From Eledone cirrhosa (taxonomy: Eukaryota), in NCBI GenBank assembly GCA_964016885.1, contig OZ024741.1:367164001-367228000 (forward strand): 64,000 bases of DNA, given 5' to 3'. The position numbers were made by a program, and so were the translations under genes. The notes under the pieces were generated by a model. It did no database searches and was not told where the DNA came from. It saw only the letters and a program-made list of their open reading frames with translations. Shown piece by piece: positions 10,601 to 64,000 of this stretch. Position 1 is the first letter of the stretch, and each line of letters begins with the position of its first letter.

Positions 10601-13600
10601 GATGAACCCTTACAACTACAGTCTTCTACTCATAATCAAAACAGATATCTCTGCTGGCTTTAATTTTCCTAACCAACACACAACAGATTATATTTCCTAC
10701 TTTGTGGCTAAACTATTTAGCAGCAGGACTGGATTAAAGTATCTAAGAACCCTGGGCTAGAGAACAAGAATAAGTGGGATCCTCACTATCTGCTCACAAA
10801 AGACTAAATGAAGTACACATATGTAGACCTATACATAAGATGACAGAAATTCCAAGCATCGATCCATGCCAACCTCAAAACAGACATGACACCCAAAGAA
10901 AAAGAAATGTATTTTATAACAATAATAATATAAATTTTGACAAAAATGTTGTGTTTCTAAGCTATATTTTAGTTGTGTGGATCTGGACTACAGTTCACTT
11001 AATACTGGTTAACAATAAGAAGAGTATTCAACTGTATAAATAACTGTTCTTATATTAACTATCCAACTTACAGCAAATATGGATCAATTATGGCAATTAA
11101 ACTTAACCCACATAACTTTTTCATCTGCTTAGAACATAATTAAACTGATGTTTTTCATTAAAGATATAATTTATCTCCAAATTTATATATACCATCACAT
11201 CAACACACACATATATACACCACACATATACCCACATCCATCTGCCCATCAAGGCATCTCTAAATTCATCTACACTAAGTTCATATCCCACTGTGAACTA
11301 CTAGGGTGGTAGACTTAATCCATTGCTGATCCTACCACCACCTGGTCCCTGGGTGCCTTTTAGCAGAGCATTCAAGCTAGGAATTTGTTTTGGGGTCACT
11401 TTCCTCTCACTCACTTCCACCCATCAGTCTCAGAGGCCCTAAAAAGGTCATGAGCACAACCACACTGCTTGATTAAATAGTAAATATATATATAATTTTA
11501 AAAAACCATCAACATACATTCACATACACTTAACTACCCAGATATTTTAAAACTTATATACCCCATCATCACTCATATACCTACATACATATATCAACAT
11601 CTGTCTATCTATCCACCCAGTTAGTTCTAAACTCATATATACTGAGTTTAAATCCTACTGTAGCTTACTTGAGTGGTAAACTTAATCTGTCACCAGTTTA
11701 AATCCTGTTGTAGTCCACTTGGGTGGTAAACTTAATCTGTCACCCAGTTTAAATCCTGTTGTAGTCCACTTGGGTGGTAAACTTAATCTGTCACCCAGTT
11801 TAAATCCTGTTGTAGTCCACTTGGGTGGTAAACTTAATCTGTCACCCAGTTTAAATCCTGTTGTAGTCCACTTGGGTGGTAAACTTAATCTGTCACCCAG
11901 TTTAAATCCTGTTGTAGTCCACTTGGGTGGTAAACTTAATCCATCACCCAGTTTAAATCCCGCTGTAGCTTACTTCGGTGGTAAACTTAATCCATCACCC
12001 AGTTTAACACCCAGGGTGCCTTCAGTGCAGTTTACTCTGCTGCAAGCAATCAGATTAGGTCTGCTCCCTCCCTTTTATATTGGGGGATCTGAAATTGGTC
12101 ATCGACACAGTCCTTCCCTCTTTGATTAAATGGTAAAAAACAAAAGCCCCCCCAAAATAAAAATAATAATAAACACCATCAACACACATAGAACCACATC
12201 AATCTATCCAGTCAAACATCTTTAACCCTTTAGCATTTAAACCGGCCAGAATTCTCTCACCTCTTTCTGTTCAAACTGGCTGAAACCAGCCACTCACTCT
12301 GATGTTAAGGTATTGTTCTCAAAATAAATAACATCAAAATCTGATAGATTCGATATTATTTCATATTATGTGAGGTAAAGCCTTTACAATGAAAATACAA
12401 TAGTAAATATAGAGTAACGTAAATGCTAAAGAGTTAAACTCATATACACTGAGTACAATTCTACTATAGCCATCTTCAATGGTAGACTTAATTCACTAAC
12501 CAGTTTAACAACACCACTTGACTATCATCAACACACATGATATTGTTGGACCTGTCAGTTCTGAGGATGAATGTTCCAGTTGTTTGACTATTGGAATGAC
12601 AATGTGTAAGTGGCTGAGCATTCTACAAACATATGTACTTTTAACATAGTTCCCGGGAAGATTGAGTGCGATACAGTGTGCGACAAAGCTGGCCTCTTTA
12701 AATAACAGGCACAACTCATTTTTTCCAGCTGAGTGGACTGGAATAATGTGAAATAAAGTGTCTTGCTCAAGGATACAATGCATTACTAGAAATCGAACTC
12801 ATAATCTTCCGATCATGAACCAAATACCCTAAACATTAAGCCTTTGTTCAACACACTTACATCCATCTGCCTACCCAGATATCTCTAAACTGGTATGTAC
12901 ATCCAACATACGCCCACACATATACACACCCAGATATCTGTCCATTGAACTAGTCATATCTGTAAACATGCACACCTATAAATAGAAAGTACAAAGACAA
13001 CTCATTTTAAGTGGGCTACAACTCACCACAATAGAATACCATCGGCCATTTTCTTATAAAGATCATCTGATTCTGAATTTAGTGGCAGGTATGGTTTACA
13101 TTCTGGATCCCTGTTGAGGTTTCTGGAAAAGGAGAGATGAAAATTAATACATATATAAATAAACTTATTGCATTAACCCTTTTGATACCAAACAACATAA
13201 AATGCCCTTGGTTCTATAATAGAAGACTTTGTTTTAAAGTGTTGTTTATATCTAACAACCTTTTCTCCATAATTTTATGTGAAAACATTTATGTGTCAAA
13301 CACTAGCTTAATAGTCTATTTGTATGTATCATCATCATTGTTTAACGTCCATTTTTACACGCTAGCATGGGTTAGACATTATATGTATGTATGTATGTAC
13401 AGGTTAATAGAAAAACAAGGCACATTTACTGTTTTACATCAACTTTTCTATACTGGTTGGATGGGATTTTTTGAGGCAATGTTTTACAGCCGGATTCCTT
13501 TCCTGACACTAACCCTTTTAGTCACTTCTTACAACATGCAGGGATATAGTGTACCTATTCCAAACTATATACACACAATGTATGTGTGTGTGCGTATATA

Positions 13601-17176: not shown

Positions 17177-17594
17177 GTGTGTGTGTGTGTAAAAGGTAAA
17201 CAGAAATAACAACATAATCGGTACAGTATATGGAAGGAATATATTAGGTTAATGCTTGAAATAGCAGGAAGAGGGTCTTAAAGTTTCGGACACTAGTCCT
17301 TCATCAGAAGAAAGAATGAAAAATTAGAAAGATACACACACATACATAAATGTATACATCGGCTGATTAGCCTAATTTGCAAACCAAGCAATTTTACGGC
17401 TGATAATGTGACTGTATCTGACAATGTTGACAATATTATGGACATTGGAACTTTGTTGTTCCAAATAAACTGTAGTGGCCATATTAGAAAATATGAGAAG
17501 ATTCTAATATAGAAATTGAAACTGGAAAGTTGTCATGTCTTCAGCAACACATATATATAAAAGAGCTATTTTTCATATATACAACTATACATAT

Positions 17595-23719: not shown

Positions 23720-26700
23720 GAGAGTAGTGTGAAATAAAGCCTTTACAATAGTATATAGAGAGTAGTGTGAAATAAAGCCTTTACAATAGTATATAGAGCG
23801 TAATGTGAAATAAAGCCTTTACAATAGTATATAGAGAGTAGTGTGAAATAAAGCCTTTACAATAGTATATAGAGAGTAGTGTGAAATAAAGCCTTTACGA
23901 TAGTATATAGAGAGTAGTGTGAAATAAAGCCTTTACAATAGCATATAGAGAGTAATGTGAAATAAAGCCTTTACAATAGTATATAGAGCGTAATGTGAAA
24001 TAAAGCCTTTACAATAGTATATAGAGAGGAGTGTGAAATAAAGCCTTTACAATAGTATATAGAGAGTAGTGTGAAATAAAGCCTGTACAATAGTATATAG
24101 AGAATAGTGTGAAATAAAGCCTTTACAATAGTATATAGAGAGTAATGTGAAATAAAGCCTTTACAATAGTATATAGAGAGTAGTGTGAAATAAAGCCTTT
24201 ACAATAGTATATAGAGCGTAATGTGAAATAAAGCCTTTACAATAGTATATAGAGAGTAGTGTGAAATAAAGCCTGTACAATAGTATATAGAGAGTAATGT
24301 GAAATAAAGCCTGTACAATAGTATATAGAGAGTAGTGTGAAATAAAGCCTTTACAATAGTATATAGAGAGTAGTGTGAAATAAAGCCTTTACAATAGTAT
24401 ATAGAGAGTAGTGTGAAATAAAGCCTTTACAATAGCATATAGAGAGTAGTGTGAAATAAAGCCTGTACAATAGTATATAGAGAGTAGTGTGAAATAAAGC
24501 CTTTACAATAGTATATAGAGAGTAGTGTGAAATAAAGCCTTTACAATAGTATATAGAGAGTAGTGTGAAATAAAGCCTTTACAATAGTATATAGAGAGTA
24601 GTGTGAAATAAAGCCTGTACAATAGTATATAGAGAGTAGTGTGAAATAAAGCCTGTACAATAGTATATAGAGAGTAGTGTGAAATAAAGCCTGTACAATA
24701 GTATATAGAGAGGAGTGTGAAATAAAGCCTGTACAATAGTATATAGAGAGTAGTGTGAAATAAAGCTTGTACAATAGTATATAGAGTAGTGTGAAATAAA
24801 GCCTTTACAATAGTATATAGAGAGTAATGTGAAATAAAGCCTTTACAATAGTATATAAAGAGTAGTGTGAAATAAAGCCTTTACAATAGTATATAGAGAG
24901 TAGTGTGAAATAAAGCCTTTACAATAGTATATAGAGAGTAGTGTGAAATAAAGCCTGTACAATAGTATATAGAGAGTAATGTGAAATAAAGCCTGTACAA
25001 TAGTATATAGAGAGTAGTGTGAAATAAAGCCTGTACAATAGTATATAGAGTAGTGTGAAATAAAGCCTTTACAATAGTATATAGAGAGTAATGTGAAATA
25101 AAGCCTGTACAATAGTATATAGAGAGTAGTGTGAAATAAAGCCTGTACAATAGTATATAGAGTAGTGTGAAATAAAGCCTTTACAATAGTATATAGAGAG
25201 TAATGTGAAATAAAGCCTTTACAATAGTATATAGAGAGTAGTGTGAAATAAAGCCTTTACAATAGTATATAGAGAGTAGTGTGAAATAAAGCCTTTACAA
25301 TAGTATATAGAGAGTAGTGTGAAATAAAGCCTTTACAATAGTATATAGAGAGTAGTGTGAAATAAAGCCTGTACAATAGTATATAGAGAGTAATGTGAAA
25401 TAAAGCCTTTACAATAGTATATAGAGAGTAGTGTGAAATAAAGCCTGTACAATAGTATATAGAGAGTAGTGTGAAATAAAGCCTGTACAATAGTATATAG
25501 AGAGTAGTGTGAAATAAAGCCTGTACAATAATATATAGAGAGTAATGTGAAATAAAGCCTTTACAACAGTATATAGAGAGTAATGTGAAATAAAGCCTTT
25601 ACAATAGTATATAGAGAGTAGTGTGAAATAAAGCCTGTACAATAGTCTATAGAGAGTAGTGTGAAATAAAGCCTTTACAATAGTATATAGAGAGTAGTGT
25701 GAAATAAAGCCTGTACAATAGTATATAGAGAGTAGTGTGAAATAAAGCCTTTACAATAGTATATAGAGAGTAGTGTGAAATAAAGCCTTTACAATAGTAT
25801 ATAGAGAGTAGTGTGAAATAAAGCCTGTACAATAGTATATAGAGAGTAGTGTGAAATAAAGCCTTTACAATAGTATATAGAGAGTAATGTGAAATAAAGC
25901 CTTTACAATAGTATATAGAGAGTAGTGTGAAATAAAGCCTGTACAATAGTCTATAGAGAGTAGTGTGAAATAAAGCCTTTACAATAGTATATAGAGAGTA
26001 GTGTGAAATAAAGCCTGTACAATAGTATATAGAGAGTAGTGTGAAATAAAGCCTTTACAATAGTATATAGAGAGTAATGTGAAATAAAGCCTTTACAATA
26101 GTATATAGAGAGTAGTGTGAAATAAAGCCTGTACAATAGTATATAGAGAGTAGTGTGAAATAAAGCCTGTACAATAGTATATAGAGAGTAGTGTGAAATA
26201 AAGCCTTTACAATAGTATATAGAGAGTAGTGTGAAATAAAGCCTGTACAATAGTCTATAGAGAGTAGTGTGAAATAAAGCCTTTACAATAGTATATAGAG
26301 AGTAGTGTGAAATAAAGCCTTTACAATAGTATATAGAGAGTAATGTGAAATAAAGCCTGTACAATAGTATATAGACAGTAATGTGAAATAAAGCCTGTAC
26401 AATAGTATATAGACAGTAATGTGAAATAAAGCCTTTACAATAGTATATAGAGAGTAGTGTGAAATAAAGCCTTTACAATAGTATATAGAGAGTAGTGTGA
26501 AATAAAGCCTGTACAATAGTCTATAGAGAGTAGTGTGAAATAAAGCCTTTACAATAGTATATAGAGAGTAATGTGAAATAAAGCCTTTACAATAGTATAT
26601 AGAGAGTAATGTGAAATAAAGCCTGTACAATAGTATATAGACAGTAATGTGAAATAAAGCCTTTACAATAGTATATAGTGAGTAATGTGAAATAAAGCCT

Positions 26701-28591
26701 TTACAATAGTATATAGAGAGTAATGTGAAATAAAGCCTTTACAATAGTATATAGAGAGTAATGTGAAATAAAGCCTGTACAATAGTATATAGAGAGTAGT
26801 GTGAAATAAAGCCTGTACAATAGTATATAGAGAGTAGTGTGAAATAAAGCCTTTACAATAGTATATAGAGAGTAATGTGAAATAAAGCCTTTACAATAGT
26901 ATATAGAGAGTAATGTGAAATAAAGCCTTTACAATAGTCTATAGAGAGTAGTGTGAAATAAAGCCTTTACAATAGTATATAGAGCGTAATGTGAAATAAA
27001 GCCTTTACAATAGTATATAGAGAGTAGTGTGAAATAAAGCCTGTACAATAGTCTATAGAGAGTAGTGTGAAATAAAGCCTTTACAATAGTATATAGAGAG
27101 TAGTGTGAAATAAAGCTTGTACAATAGTATATAGAGAGTAGTGTGAAATAAAGCCTTTACAATAGTATATAGAGAGTAGTGTGAAATAAAGCCTTTACAA
27201 TAGTATATAGAGAGTAGTGTAAAATAAAGCCTTTACAATAGTATATAGAGAGTAGTGTGAAATAAAGCCTGTACAATAGTATATAGAGAGTAGTGTGAAA
27301 TAAAGCCTTTACAATAGTATATAGAGAGTAGTGTGAAATAAAGCCTGTACAATAGTATATAGAGAGTAGTGTGAAATAAAGCCTGTACAATAGTATATAG
27401 AGAGTAATGTGAAATAAAGCCTGTACAATAGTATATAGAGAGTAATGTGAAATAAAGCCTTTACAATAGTCTATAGAGAGTAGTGTGAAATAAAGCCTTT
27501 ACAATAGTATATAGAGCGTAATGTGAAATAAAGCCTTTACAATAGTATATAGAGAGTAGTGTGAAATAAAGCCTGTACAATAGTCTATAGAGAGTAGTGT
27601 GAAATAAAGCCTGTACAATAGTATATAGAGAGTAGTGTGAAATAAAGCCTTTACAATAGTATATAGAGAGTAGTGTGAAATAAAGCCTGTACAATAGTAT
27701 ATAGAGAGTAGTGTGAAATAAAGCCTTTACAATAGTATATAGAGAGTAGTGTGAAATAAAGCCTTTACAATAGTATATAGAGAGGAGTGTGAAATAAAGC
27801 CTTTACAATAGTATATAGAGAGTAGTGTGAAATAAAGCCGTTACAATAGTATATAGAGAGTAATGTGAAATAAAGCCTTTACAATAGTATATAGAGAGTA
27901 GTGTGAAATAAAGCCTTTACAATAGTATATAGAGAGGAGTGTGAAATAAAGCCTTTACAATAGTATATAGAGAGTAGTGTGAAATAAAGCCTTTACAATA
28001 GTATATAGAGAGTAGTGTGAAATAAAGCCTTTACAATAGTATATAGAGAGTAATGTGAAATAAAGCCTTTACAATAGTATATAGAGAGGAGTGTGAAATA
28101 AAGCCTTTACAATAGCATATAGAGAGTAGTGTGAAATAAAGCCTTTACAATAGTATATAGAGAGTAATGTGAAATAAAGCCGTTACAATAGTATATAGAG
28201 AGTAATGTGAAATAAAGCCTTTACAATAGTATATAGAGAGTAGTGTGAAATAAAGCCTTTACAATAGTATATAGAGAGTAGTGTGAAATAAAGCCTTTAC
28301 AATAGTATATAGAGAGTAGTGTGAAATAAAGCCTTTACAATAGTATATAGAGAGTAATGTGAAATAAAGCCGTTACAATAGTATATAGAGAGTAATGTGA
28401 AATAAAGCCTTTACAATAGTATATAGAGAGTAGTGTGAAATAAAGCCTTTACAATAGTATATAGAGAGGAGTGTGAAATAAAGCCTTTACAATAGTATAT
28501 AGAGAGTAATGTGAAATAAAGCCTTTACAATAGTATATAGAGAGGAGTGTGAAATAAAGCCTTTACAATAGTATATAGAGCGTAATGTGAA
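23720..28591. repeat. 38-bp satellite, ~128 copies (GAGAGTAGTGTGAAATAAAGCCTTTACAATAGTATATA), nested inside a MITE
   Basis: Direct reading; MITE left arm 23585-23719 and right terminus 28581-28606 flank the array. Confidence 0.97.

Positions 28592-50958: not shown

Positions 50959-51009
<51 letters not shown>
49109..51009. repeat. (TA)nCA microsatellite, ~1.9 kb
   Basis: Direct reading; 600-aa ORFs are artefacts. Confidence 0.97.
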
Positions 51010-51536
51010 CATTTAAGTAAGTGCCATACTAAGAGTGAGAAATGAAATTTCGTTTTCATTTTGTTTCAATTTATCGTTTTCGGTATGCCTGACCGATTTA
51101 ACTCACTCAATATGCAAATTAGGCTGCTCAGCCGTTAATTTTCATAAGGAAAGTATATACTTTCGAACGTTCAACTATCTGGCAGATGGGTAAACGGTGC
51201 TGATGATAGCTAACAAGCTTGAAACTAGTACATCATTCCTGTGTCAGTGTTGAACAAAAAGGTGACGTGGTTGCCTTAACACCGTATGGCATAAATTCAG
51301 GCTGTTCAGTTTGTTTACAAACGAACAAAGCGACGTTAGCACCGCTAAACTGATACGTGCATATATGTATGTGTACCTGTATGCATATGTATGTATATAT
51401 ATATATATATATATGTGCATGCTACTGTACGTCTGTATACATATATGTATGTACGTATACATGCATACTTACATTTAAGTAAGTGCCATACTAAGAGTGA
51501 GAAATGAAATTTCGTTTTCATTTTGTTTCAATTTAT
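51008..51536 (+). mobile_element. Small non-coding hammerhead-containing element: 462-nt unit plus 67-nt terminal direct repeat (PLE pLTR- or retrozyme-like)
   Basis: Exact direct repeat 51008-51074 = 51470-51536; hammerhead at 51196-51234; TA microsatellite on both sides; no credible ORF. Confidence 0.65.
51196..51234 (+). ncRNA. Minimal type I hammerhead ribozyme-like motif
   Basis: GGTG-CTGATGA-T-AGCT-AACA-AGCT-T-GAA-ACTAGT-A-CATC: intact core, palindromic stem III ACTAGT, GUA triplet, stem I GGTG/CATC. Confidence 0.72.
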
Positions 51537-61320: not shown

Positions 61321-61605
61321 CTGATATAAAAAAAAAAGCAATGTCAGCACAGGCAGGATTTCATCTTGGGAGCAGTGATTGAGTCATTGAACTAAATAAA
61401 ACAATTAAGTACCATGTATTAAGTCACCGCCCTTTTCTCTTTCATTTTCACTATTACCCATTAATAAAGGACAGGTGCAAGTCATGTTTGGAATCAATGG
61501 GAAACTGGAGTTTATGGTAGGGTCACGTGTTTATCAGTCATCAGACACACAAACGCACACTGATACTAACTCACACACACATTGACACTAACATACACAG
61601 ACACC

Positions 61606-64000
61606 AACACACACTGGCGCTAACACACACTGGCGCTAACACACACTGGCGCTAACACACACTGGCGCTAACACACACTGGCACTAACACACACTGGCAC
61701 TAACACACACTGGCGCTAACACACACTGGCGCTAACACACACTGGCGCTAACACACACTGGCGCTAACACACACTGGCGCTAACACACACTGGCACTAAC
61801 ACACACTGGCGCTAACACACACTGGCGCTAACACACACTGGCGCTAACACACAATGGCACTAACACACACTGGCGCTAACACACACTGGCACTAACACAC
61901 ACTGGCACTAACACACACTGGCACTAACACACACTGGCACTAACACACACTGGCACTAACACACACTGGCACTAACACACACTGGCACTAACACACACTG
62001 GCACTAACACACACTGGCACTAACACACACTGGCACTAACACACACTGGCACTAACACACACTGGCACTAACTCACACTGGCACTAACTCACACTGGCGT
62101 TAACACACACTGGCACTAACACACACTGGCACTAACACACACTGGCACTAACACACACTGGCACTAACTCACACTGGCACTAACTCACACTGGCGTTAAC
62201 ACACACTGGCACTAACACACACTGGCACTAACTCACACTGGCGTTAACACACACTGGCACTAACACACACTGGCGCTAACACACACTGGCGCTAACACAC
62301 ACTGGCGCTAACACACACTGGCACTAACTCACACTGGCACTAACACACACTGGCGCTAACACACACTGGCACTAACACACACTGGCACTAACACACACTG
62401 GCGCTAACACACACTGGCGCTAACACACACTGGCACTAACACACACTGGCGCTAACACACACTGGCGCTAACACACACTGGCGCTAACACACACTGGCAC
62501 TAACACACACTGGCACTAACACACACTGGCACTAACACACACTGGCACTAACACACACTGGCGTTAACACACACTGGCGCTAACACACACTGGCACTAAC
62601 ACACACTGGCACTAACACACACTGGCACTAACACACACTGGCACTAACACACACTGGCACTAACACACACTGGCACTAACACACACTGGCACTAACACAC
62701 ACTGGCGTTAACACACACTGGCACTAACACACACTGGCACTAACACACACTGGCACTAACACACACTGGCGCTAACACACACTGGCACTAACACACACTG
62801 GCACTAACACACACTGGCACTAACACACACTGGCACTAACACACACTGGCACTAACACACACTGGCACTAACACACACTGGCACTAACACACACTGGCAC
62901 TAACACACACTGGCACTAACACACACTGGCACTAACACACACTGGCACTAACACACACTGGCACTAACACACACTGGCACTAACACACACTGGCACTAAC
63001 ACACACTGGCACTAACACACACTGGCACTAACACACACTGGCACTAACACACACTGGCACTAACACACACTGGCACTAACACACACTGGCACTAACACAC
63101 ACTGGCACTAACACACACTGGCACTAACACACACTAGCACTAACTCACACTGGCGTTAACACACACTGGCACTAACACACACTGGCACTAACTCACACTG
63201 GCGTTAACACACACTGGCACTAACACACACTGGCACTAACTCACACTGGCGCTAACACACACTGGCACTAACACACACTGGCACTAACACACACTGGCGC
63301 TAACACACACTGGCGCTAACACACACTGGCGCTAACACACACTGGCACTAACACACACTGGCACTAACACACACTGGCACTAACACACACTGGCACTAAC
63401 ACACACTGGCACTAACACACACTGGCGTTAACACACACTGGCACTAACACACACTGGCGTTAACACACACTGGCACTAACACACACTGGCGCTAACACAC
63501 ACTGGCGCTAACACACACTGGCGCTAACACACACTGGCACTAACACACACTGGCACTAACACACACTGGCACTAACACACACTGGCACTAACACACACTG
63601 GCACTAACACACACTGGCACTAACACACACTGGCACTAACACACACTGGCACTAACACACACTGGCGTTAACACACACTGGCGCTAACACACACTGGCGC
63701 TAACACACACTGGCGTTAACACACACTGGCGCTAACACACACTGGCACTAACACACACTGGCACTAACACACACTGGCACTAACACACACTGGCACTAAC
63801 ACACACTGGCACTAACACACACTGGCACTAACACACACTGGCACTAACACACACTGGCACTAACACACACTGGCGTTAACACACACTGGCGCTAACACAC
63901 ACTGGCACTAACACACACTGGCGTTAACACACACTGGCGCTAACACACACTGGCACTAACACACACTGGCACTAACACACACTGGCACTAACACACACTG
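61606..64000. repeat. 16-bp satellite (TAACACACACTGGCRC), about 150 copies, continuing past the window end
   Basis: Direct reading; variants GGCAC/GGCGC/GGCGT and occasional ACTCAC. Confidence 0.97.

What the first reader, a model, noticed from the sequence alone, without database searches (positions are those of the whole stretch)
17191..17545. Shared 22-nt motif placed 50-60 nt upstream of a hammerhead in two otherwise dissimilar microsatellite-embedded islands
Seen: minus strand 17381-17360 reads TGCAAATTAGGCTAATCAGCCG and plus strand 51113-51134 reads TGCAAATTAGGCTGCTCAGCCG (20/22 identical; GGCT..AGCC hairpin). Each is followed on the same strand by a hammerhead core, 48 and 61 nt downstream. 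I see no other similarity between the islands, and their hammerhead stems differ. The 51111 copy contains the octamer ATGCAAAT (established POU/Oct site). Inference: a conserved cis-module (promoter element, RT-recognition hairpin or ribozyme partner) that defines a wider family of small ribozyme elements.
Basis: partly seen in the sequence, partly recalled or inferred. Interest (0 to 1): 0.75.

Follow-up and report, generated by a model that had tools for sequence, protein, structure and literature searches.

The report
Retrozymes carrying a U6-like promoter
The shared motif is the best-conserved part of two related families of small jumping repeats that each hold a predicted self-cutting RNA, and its first half matches the signal in front of this animal's own U6-type genes, so it likely lets the repeats drive their own transcription; the ribozyme next to it in the first island belongs to an unrelated element.

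Summary
Both motif copies are real, but the pairing was misread. Island 2 is one copy of a young retrozyme-like family (A): 17,369 exact motif copies genome-wide, 93% with a hammerhead core 55-75 nt downstream. Island 1 is a three-piece mosaic. Its motif lies in a 54-nt fragment of an older family (D); its hammerhead belongs to an unrelated Penelope-type end whose other copies lack the motif (0 of 29). D is a collinear relative of A (59% identical, 22/24 in the motif) and has its own hammerhead, a U3:A8 core variant, at the same place. The motif's first 13 nt match the element at -77 to -79 of this genome's U6, U6atac and RNase MRP promoters (11-12/13), and a TATA follows at a fixed 43-44 nt. 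Best reading: a carried U6-type promoter (0.55). Against: spacing is 4-5 nt shorter than in host genes, T-runs must be read through, the motif also folds as a hairpin, and no RNA data exist. Precedents: newt satellite 2, schistosome repeats. The scan reached the promoter reading earlier on other DNA of this genome; family D and the mosaic were not among notes I saw.

The parts
51009..51536 (+). Family A copy, a little over one 462-bp unit; family similarity continues through AT-rich DNA to about 50900; 3' end runs into (AT)n
51009..51074 (+). Terminal direct repeat, repeated at 51471-51536 (partial second unit)
51053..51066 (+). T-rich tract (repeated at 51515-51528); T4 in this copy, T5 or longer in 57 of 103 units; candidate leaky Pol III terminator
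   Evidence: role inferred
51111..51123 (+). TATGCAAATTAGG: matches the element at -77 to -79 of host U6, U6atac and RNase MRP genes; contains the octamer (51112-51119)
51113..51134 (+).
51154..51159 (+). TATATA, 43 nt after the element start; 30 nt on predicts a start at 51184 (C|A)
   Evidence: start site predicted, not shown
51184..51247 (+). Type I hammerhead of family A: core from 51200, short palindromic stem III (ACTAGT), predicted cut after GUA at 51230; this copy has a stem I mismatch at 51235
17349..17402 (-). 54-nt fragment of old family D holding the second motif copy (17381-17360); D's TATA and hammerhead are missing here
17334..17348 (-). Short TG/AT-rich spacer between the D fragment and the family B copy
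17191..17333 (-). 5'-truncated end of family B (Penelope-type), with the minimal hammerhead core at 17307; not linked to the motif in other copies
17400..17570 (+). Decayed fragment of family C, on the opposite strand: remnant of a hammerhead core followed by a stop-interrupted reading frame; read as a Penelope-type end
   Evidence: Penelope label from recall of the layout

Best explanation
The 22-mer is the most conserved stretch of two related hammerhead repeat families (A and D), its first 13 bases match the upstream element of this genome's U6, U6atac and RNase MRP genes, and with the TATA 43-44 nt downstream it likely acts as a promoter carried inside each unit. In a tandem or circularly permuted copy it would start transcription at the 5' arm of the hammerhead. 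RNA that reads through the T-tract would be cut by the next hammerhead into whole units that contain the promoter; these, or circles made from them, would be reverse-transcribed by a Penelope-type enzyme primed at AT repeats. I favour Pol III with leaky termination over Pol II in snRNA mode about 3:2. Shown: family structure, common descent, promoter-element match, fixed spacing, insertion-end pattern. Inferred: transcription, start site, polymerase, cleavage, circles, the mobilising enzyme. In island 1 the motif is a leftover D fragment beside an unrelated hammerhead.
For: Motif plus core: 16,110 of 17,369 exact copies. Reverse test: of 23 new loci picked by the D hammerhead alone, 13 carry the motif 57-77 nt upstream and the other 10 appear by eye to be truncated or rearranged before that place. 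A and D align beyond the motif (score 60; 0 of 500 shuffles reach it, maximum 35); 59% overall, 22/24 in the motif. The 13-mer scores 11-12/13 at -77 to -79 in 5 unrelated host promoters (3 U6, MRP, best U6atac locus), P at most 2e-4 each, and it is the best match in the 400 nt upstream of each. Element-to-TATA is 43 in all 105 of 118 A units that keep TATATA, while TATA-to-core varies (46 in 68, 38 in 15); 44 in 8 of 13 D copies. One tandem subfamily lost the hairpin around the TATA but kept TATA and spacing. In the motif hairpin the 5' arm is constant and only the 3' arm differs between A and D. 3' ends cluster at two sites (30 and 20 of 60), mostly running into (AT)n; 5' ends scatter; 28 of 60 loci have an inverted piece upstream against 1 downstream.
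Against: Host element-to-TATA spacing is 47-49, so A and D are 4-5 nt short; in insects this spacing varies by only 1-2 bp (PMC1761439, passages). The distal box found in 3 of 3 U6, 2 of 3 U2 and the RNase P promoter was not found in the one A array checked. 57 of 103 A units have T5 or longer just upstream of the motif, as host Pol III ends do, yet whole units and arrays were copied. None of 59 mapped 5' ends lies at the predicted start or cut site. The second half of the motif is conserved without matching Pol III promoters, and the motif folds as a hairpin in A and D (z -1.6 to -2.0). RNase P lacks the element. An octamer is a common word. The 16,110 copies are one family, not independent events.
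Confidence: 0.55

Rival explanations
1. The motif is kept as an RNA hairpin (protein-binding, circle-folding or reverse-transcriptase recognition site), and the elements are transcribed by read-through from host promoters.
For: A, its subfamily and D all fold the motif into a capped hairpin (z -1.74, -1.97, -1.61); the two host promoters folded do not. The GGCT..AGCC half has no counterpart in Pol III promoters. Wrong spacing and T-runs.
Against: No change on both sides of a pair in the cap stem among the variants seen. A structure-only role does not explain an 11-12/13 match at one fixed place in 5 host promoters, or a TATA at fixed distance. The two roles can coexist.
Confidence: 0.25
2. The motif is a generic POU/Oct site, or a relic of an old promoter capture; it may act as an enhancer but is not a core promoter.
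For: The octamer is a common site (recalled). Spacing mismatch and missing distal box. An extra exact-length match lies at -276 of a dispersed U6 copy.
Against: The match extends past the octamer on both sides, and fixed spacing to a TATA survived about 40% divergence.
Confidence: 0.15
3. One reading: a free module placed ahead of unrelated hammerheads, including the island-1 hammerhead.
For: Same strand and similar distance (52 and 65 nt) in the two islands.
Against: 0 of 29 family B loci and 0 of 29 family C loci carry the motif beside the element; the one loose 4-mismatch hit in a B locus is far away on the other strand. The island-1 motif lies in 54 nt that match family D at 85-91%.
Confidence: 0.05

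Closest known systems
Animal non-LTR retrozymes (Cervera and de la Pena 2020, PMC7229834; Li, Clavereau and Pollet 2026, 10.64898/2026.07.22.740005)
   Same: Short tandem units, one type I hammerhead each, Penelope-like elements proposed as mobilisers. The U-U mismatch at the base of stem II in family A is also described for an axolotl hammerhead.
   Different: Units of 422-499 bp include an internal AT-rich tract. Neither paper's main text describes an internal promoter: 'promoter' occurs only for T7 in the first and not at all in the second. Circles and cleavage are untested here.
Newt satellite 2 (Coats, Zhang and Epstein 1994; not held; known through PMC2220036 and PMC6765202 passages)
   Same: Hammerhead satellite with an internal snRNA-type promoter.
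   Different: Reported as Pol II. Here the element matches U6/MRP/U6atac promoters and not the three U2 promoters examined. Sequence homology was not tested.
Schistosome hammerhead repeats (Sm-alpha; PMC6765202 and PMC2220036 passages)
   Same: Pol III promoter ends up at the 3' end of cut RNA, so tandem copies are needed; the same logic applies here.
   Different: That promoter is recalled as tRNA-like A/B boxes (not seen in any call); here it is an upstream-type element plus TATA.
Penelope-like elements (PMC11167929, part 1 of 4; PMC6765202 passages)
   Same: Partial tandem copies, internal start of reverse transcription, preference for AT-rich targets, short palindromic stem III.
   Different: No coding partner was tied to A or D; no shared sequence with a coding element beyond a short 3' word was shown.
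U3:A8 hammerhead variants (Perreault et al. 2011, PMC3088659 passage)
   Same: C3-G8 replaced by U3-A8; reported as natural and active in vitro.
   Different: Here it is the majority state of a whole old repeat family (14 of 20 descriptor matches; 128 exact pattern hits).

Membership tests
Non-LTR retrozyme | Type I hammerhead in each unit | tested here: met
   A: 95 of 118 units match the family pattern, 93 with CTGANGA; stem I pairs covary (CGGTG/CATCG, CGTTG/CAGCG, CGATG/CATCG). D: 20 of 28 loci match a descriptor, two of them doubtful. Rfam gave no hit.
Non-LTR retrozyme | Short head-to-tail repeats (150-450 bp) | tested here: met
   A units of 422-499 bp, at or slightly above the range; 14 of 60 loci hold two or more motifs on one strand. 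D arrays were not shown.
Non-LTR retrozyme | No coding capacity, no LTR, PBS or PPT | not tested
   No formal ORF or PBS search on the unit; none was evident in the unit sequences.
Non-LTR retrozyme | Self-cleavage and circular monomer RNA | not testable with these tools
   No RNA run listed.
Type 3 Pol III (U6-type) promoter | Upstream element as in the host's U6-type genes | tested here: met
   11-12/13 in 5 of 6 primary Pol III-type genes examined; RNase P is the miss.
Type 3 Pol III (U6-type) promoter | TATA box downstream of the element | tested here: met
   105 of 118 A units; 10 of 13 D copies.
Type 3 Pol III (U6-type) promoter | Host element-to-TATA spacing | tested here: not met
   43-44 against 47-49.
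Type 3 Pol III (U6-type) promoter | Distal element | tested here: not met
   Box at -262 to -288 of U6, U2 and RNase P not found in the A array L013; also not found in MRP or U6atac.
Type 3 Pol III (U6-type) promoter | Oligo-T terminator | tested here: inconclusive
   T5 or longer in 57 of 103 units, T4 or shorter in 46.
Type 3 Pol III (U6-type) promoter | Transcription by Pol III from a defined start | not testable with these tools
   No RNA reads.
Penelope-mobilised non-autonomous element | Fixed internal 3' ends, scattered 5' truncation with inversions, partial tandem copies | tested here: met
Penelope-mobilised non-autonomous element | Identified autonomous partner | tested here: inconclusive
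   Family B ends in the same short word before AT-rich repeats and one B locus has a GIY-YIG-like frame upstream (Atlas 0.96; Pfam no hit). No link to A or D beyond that.
Newt satellite 2 | Sequence homology and Pol II snRNA promoter | not tested
   Source paper not held; no sequence compared.

The most novel reading that the evidence does not exclude
An old lineage of protein-free, self-cutting RNA elements captured the host's U6-type upstream promoter, shortened it by half a helical turn, and uses tandem or circular layout to copy a promoter that normally lies outside the transcript. The shortened spacing may retune it for read-through, or switch it to Pol II, so that whole circles are made. 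The layout outlived about 40% sequence divergence and a C3:G8 to U3:A8 change in the ribozyme core.
Probability: 0.35. Interest if true: 0.75.

Novelty: new variant of a known kind. Interest (0 to 1): 0.55.

Why it matters
Animal retrozymes are abundantly transcribed, but the papers read here name no promoter for them. A U6-type element at fixed distance from a TATA, kept across two diverged families, gives a precise and cheap test of how they are transcribed. It would also show how an RNA-mobile element can inherit a promoter that lies upstream of its own start. As a by-product it defines this animal's U6-type promoter word, useful for guide-RNA expression, and adds a family-wide U3:A8 hammerhead. 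The idea has precedents (newt, schistosome), so it is a variant and not a new class.

Tried and rejected
Rfam at gathering threshold: no hits. My first hammerhead regex required pairing from the first stem II base and printed nothing. Link of the motif to family B or C: rejected. U2 promoters (3 types), RNase P, 2 dispersed U6 copies and 5 further U6atac copies lack the element at -76 to -81; the dispersed copies look like promoterless retrocopies, by eye. Insertion 5' ends as a proxy for the start site: no cluster (by eye). Expression: no RNA holder listed; contigs of four coded runs of unknown type showed presence only. Pfam did not recognise the frame upstream of family B. A-D similarity upstream of the motif is weak on its own (11 of 500 shuffles reach it). 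TCAG lies at -57/-58 in U2 promoters and at -56/-57 of the predicted start in A and D; four letters only, kept as a lead. The 8 versus 12 bp Pol II/Pol III spacing in Drosophila is recalled and was not confirmed in the passages read. Rows dropped: L113 (a family A variant) and L118 (duplicate) from the D set; 10-11 overlapping loci from the A sets; 7 loci already picked by motif from the reverse test. The organism was not determined; I guessed a cephalopod from contig sizes and repeats and used that only for search terms.

Full report
Observation. The two 22-mers are at 17381-17360 (minus) and 51113-51134 (plus); no match arose in 100 shuffles. A hammerhead core follows each on the same strand, 52 and 65 nt after the motif end. 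Apart from microsatellite, BLAST finds the motif and a few very short words between the islands. Rfam reports nothing in the window at gathering threshold. The genome is 3.0 Gb and unnamed.

Island 2 is a copy of a young family, here called A. The exact pattern occurs 17,369 times, and 16,110 of these have YTGANRA 55-75 nt downstream on the same strand. All of the first 30 loci are family A. A downstream 17-mer of the unit occurs 32,427 times; the excess is motif variants and truncations (56 sites inspected, enriched by choice for non-exact ones: 8 exact, 29 variant, 19 none). Units are 422-499 bp and often head-to-tail. The hammerhead is type I with covarying stem I and a short palindromic stem III. 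The window copy spans a little over one unit, with a 66-nt terminal repeat at 51009-51074 and 51471-51536.

Island 1 is a mosaic. None of 29 other B loci has the motif beside it. One B locus has a GIY-YIG-like frame upstream (Atlas 0.96; no Pfam hit), so B is probably a Penelope-type end. 17400-17570 (plus) is family C, with a hammerhead-like core in 14 of 29 loci and no motif in any of the 29. The motif itself lies in 17402-17349, which matches family D at 85-91%. The motif-hammerhead pairing in island 1 is therefore an accident of elements nesting in AT-rich repeats, or a one-off chimera.

Family D rescues the larger idea. The island-1 variant of the motif has 116 exact hits; 29 of the first 30 are not family A, and most are D. 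D carries its own type I hammerhead about 70 nt after the motif: 20 of 28 loci match a descriptor (two doubtful), 14 with U3:A8 in place of C3:G8, with covarying stem I; one copy folds at z -4.3. U3:A8 is a known active natural variant (PMC3088659, passage). Picking loci by the D hammerhead alone (128 hits), 13 of 23 new loci carry the motif 57-77 nt upstream and the other 10 appear cut before that place. A and D are collinear: the part downstream of the motif aligns far above shuffles, overall identity is 59%, and the motif is the peak at 22/24.

What the motif resembles. Three unrelated U6 promoters, the RNase MRP promoter and the best U6atac locus each have the motif's first 13 nt, 11-12 of 13 letters, at -77 to -79, and a TATA at -30 (P at most 2e-4 each in 5,000 shuffles). 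RNase P, three U2 promoter types, two dispersed U6 copies and five other U6atac copies do not. In A a TATATA follows at exactly 43 nt in all 105 of 118 units that keep it, while the distance from TATA to ribozyme core varies; in D it is mostly 44. Thirty bases after the TATA falls on C|A in the 5' arm of stem I in A and in the four D copies printed, Y|A in all. A tandem subfamily has an 8-nt deletion that removes the hairpin around the TATA but keeps TATA and spacing. Whether the host word is an octamer site or this lineage's PSE I cannot tell.

Against. Host spacing is 47-49, so the repeat is 4-5 nt short, and insect promoters hold this spacing to 1-2 bp (PMC1761439, passages). The distal box of U6, U2 and RNase P was not found in the array checked. 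A T-tract lies just upstream of the motif, T5 or longer in 57 of 103 units; Pol III would have to leak through it to make whole units. None of 59 mapped 5' ends is at the predicted start or cut. The motif folds as a hairpin in A and D, and its second half has no Pol III counterpart. No RNA run was available.

Movement. Of 60 non-overlapping A loci, 3' ends fall at two sites (30 at -38 to -57 and 20 at -96 to -110 relative to the motif), 7 in the internal AT-rich tract and 3 elsewhere, most running into (AT)n. 5' ends scatter over the whole unit, and 28 of 60 loci have an inverted piece upstream against 1 downstream. Family B also ends in AT-rich repeats. This fits target-primed reverse transcription from internal sites, as shown for an anole Penelope-like element (PMC11167929, part 1 of 4), on multimeric or circular templates. 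The enzyme was not identified.

Mechanism, committed. Each unit likely carries a U6-derived promoter that fires into the hammerhead just downstream; read-through RNA is cut into whole units that include the promoter, and a Penelope-type enzyme reinserts them (0.55). Rivals: RNA hairpin only (0.25), generic octamer or relic (0.15), free module (0.05).

Known work. Animal retrozymes: PMC7229834 (part 2 of 6, Discussion, passages) and the 2026 preprint (part 1 of 5 and a term search) describe no internal promoter in what I saw; their supplements were not seen. Newt satellite 2 (snRNA promoter, Pol II) and schistosome repeats (Pol III) are precedents, seen as passages in PMC2220036 and PMC6765202; the newt paper was not held. 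Searches listed no paper whose title or opening reports a U6-type promoter in a retrozyme; most subscription journals are not covered. Eight earlier notes of this scan reached a similar promoter reading on other DNA of this genome; I consulted them after my own tests and they are not independent support. Look-ups by family D sequence, by words and by place returned nothing.

Verdict. A real feature and a new variant of a known kind. Interest 0.55.

Noticed in passing
L091-L120, L254-L283; window 17349-17402: Old family D has a U3:A8 hammerhead core as its majority state; unit roughly 330 bp by its consensus.
   Followed up: partly
L121-L123, L141, L143, L163, at -262 to -288: A shared distal box (TTACCTCCCTT-like) upstream of U6, U2 and RNase P genes; candidate distal element of this lineage.
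   Followed up: partly
L163: The RNase P RNA gene has a U2-like TCAGTGG at -66 and lacks the U6-type element, hinting at a Pol II-type promoter.
   Followed up: no
L141-L155: U2 promoters also have a TATA-like run near -33 to -35 and a different proximal word ending in TCAGT at -57/-58.
   Followed up: partly
L123-L140 and L143-L155: U6 genes form a tandem array of about 1.8 kb period and U2 genes one of about 2.2 kb; two U6 array copies (L127, L128) have an insertion between TATA and start.
   Followed up: no
L207, L216, L234, L250: Family A subfamily with an 8-nt deletion after the TATA and two linked base changes around the motif; forms arrays of about 424 bp.
   Followed up: partly
window 17400-17402: Families C and D meet in opposite orientation over a 3-nt overlap; possibly a template switch.
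   Followed up: no
L183: A family A copy abuts an inverted family B piece, another case of hammerhead elements nesting together.
   Followed up: no
window 23720-28591, 61575-64000, 11645-12007: Long minisatellites: 38 bp x 128, 16 bp x 152, 51 bp x 7.
   Followed up: no
runs X1-X6: Family A sequence is held by runs under four different coded organism labels, at very different depth.
   Followed up: no
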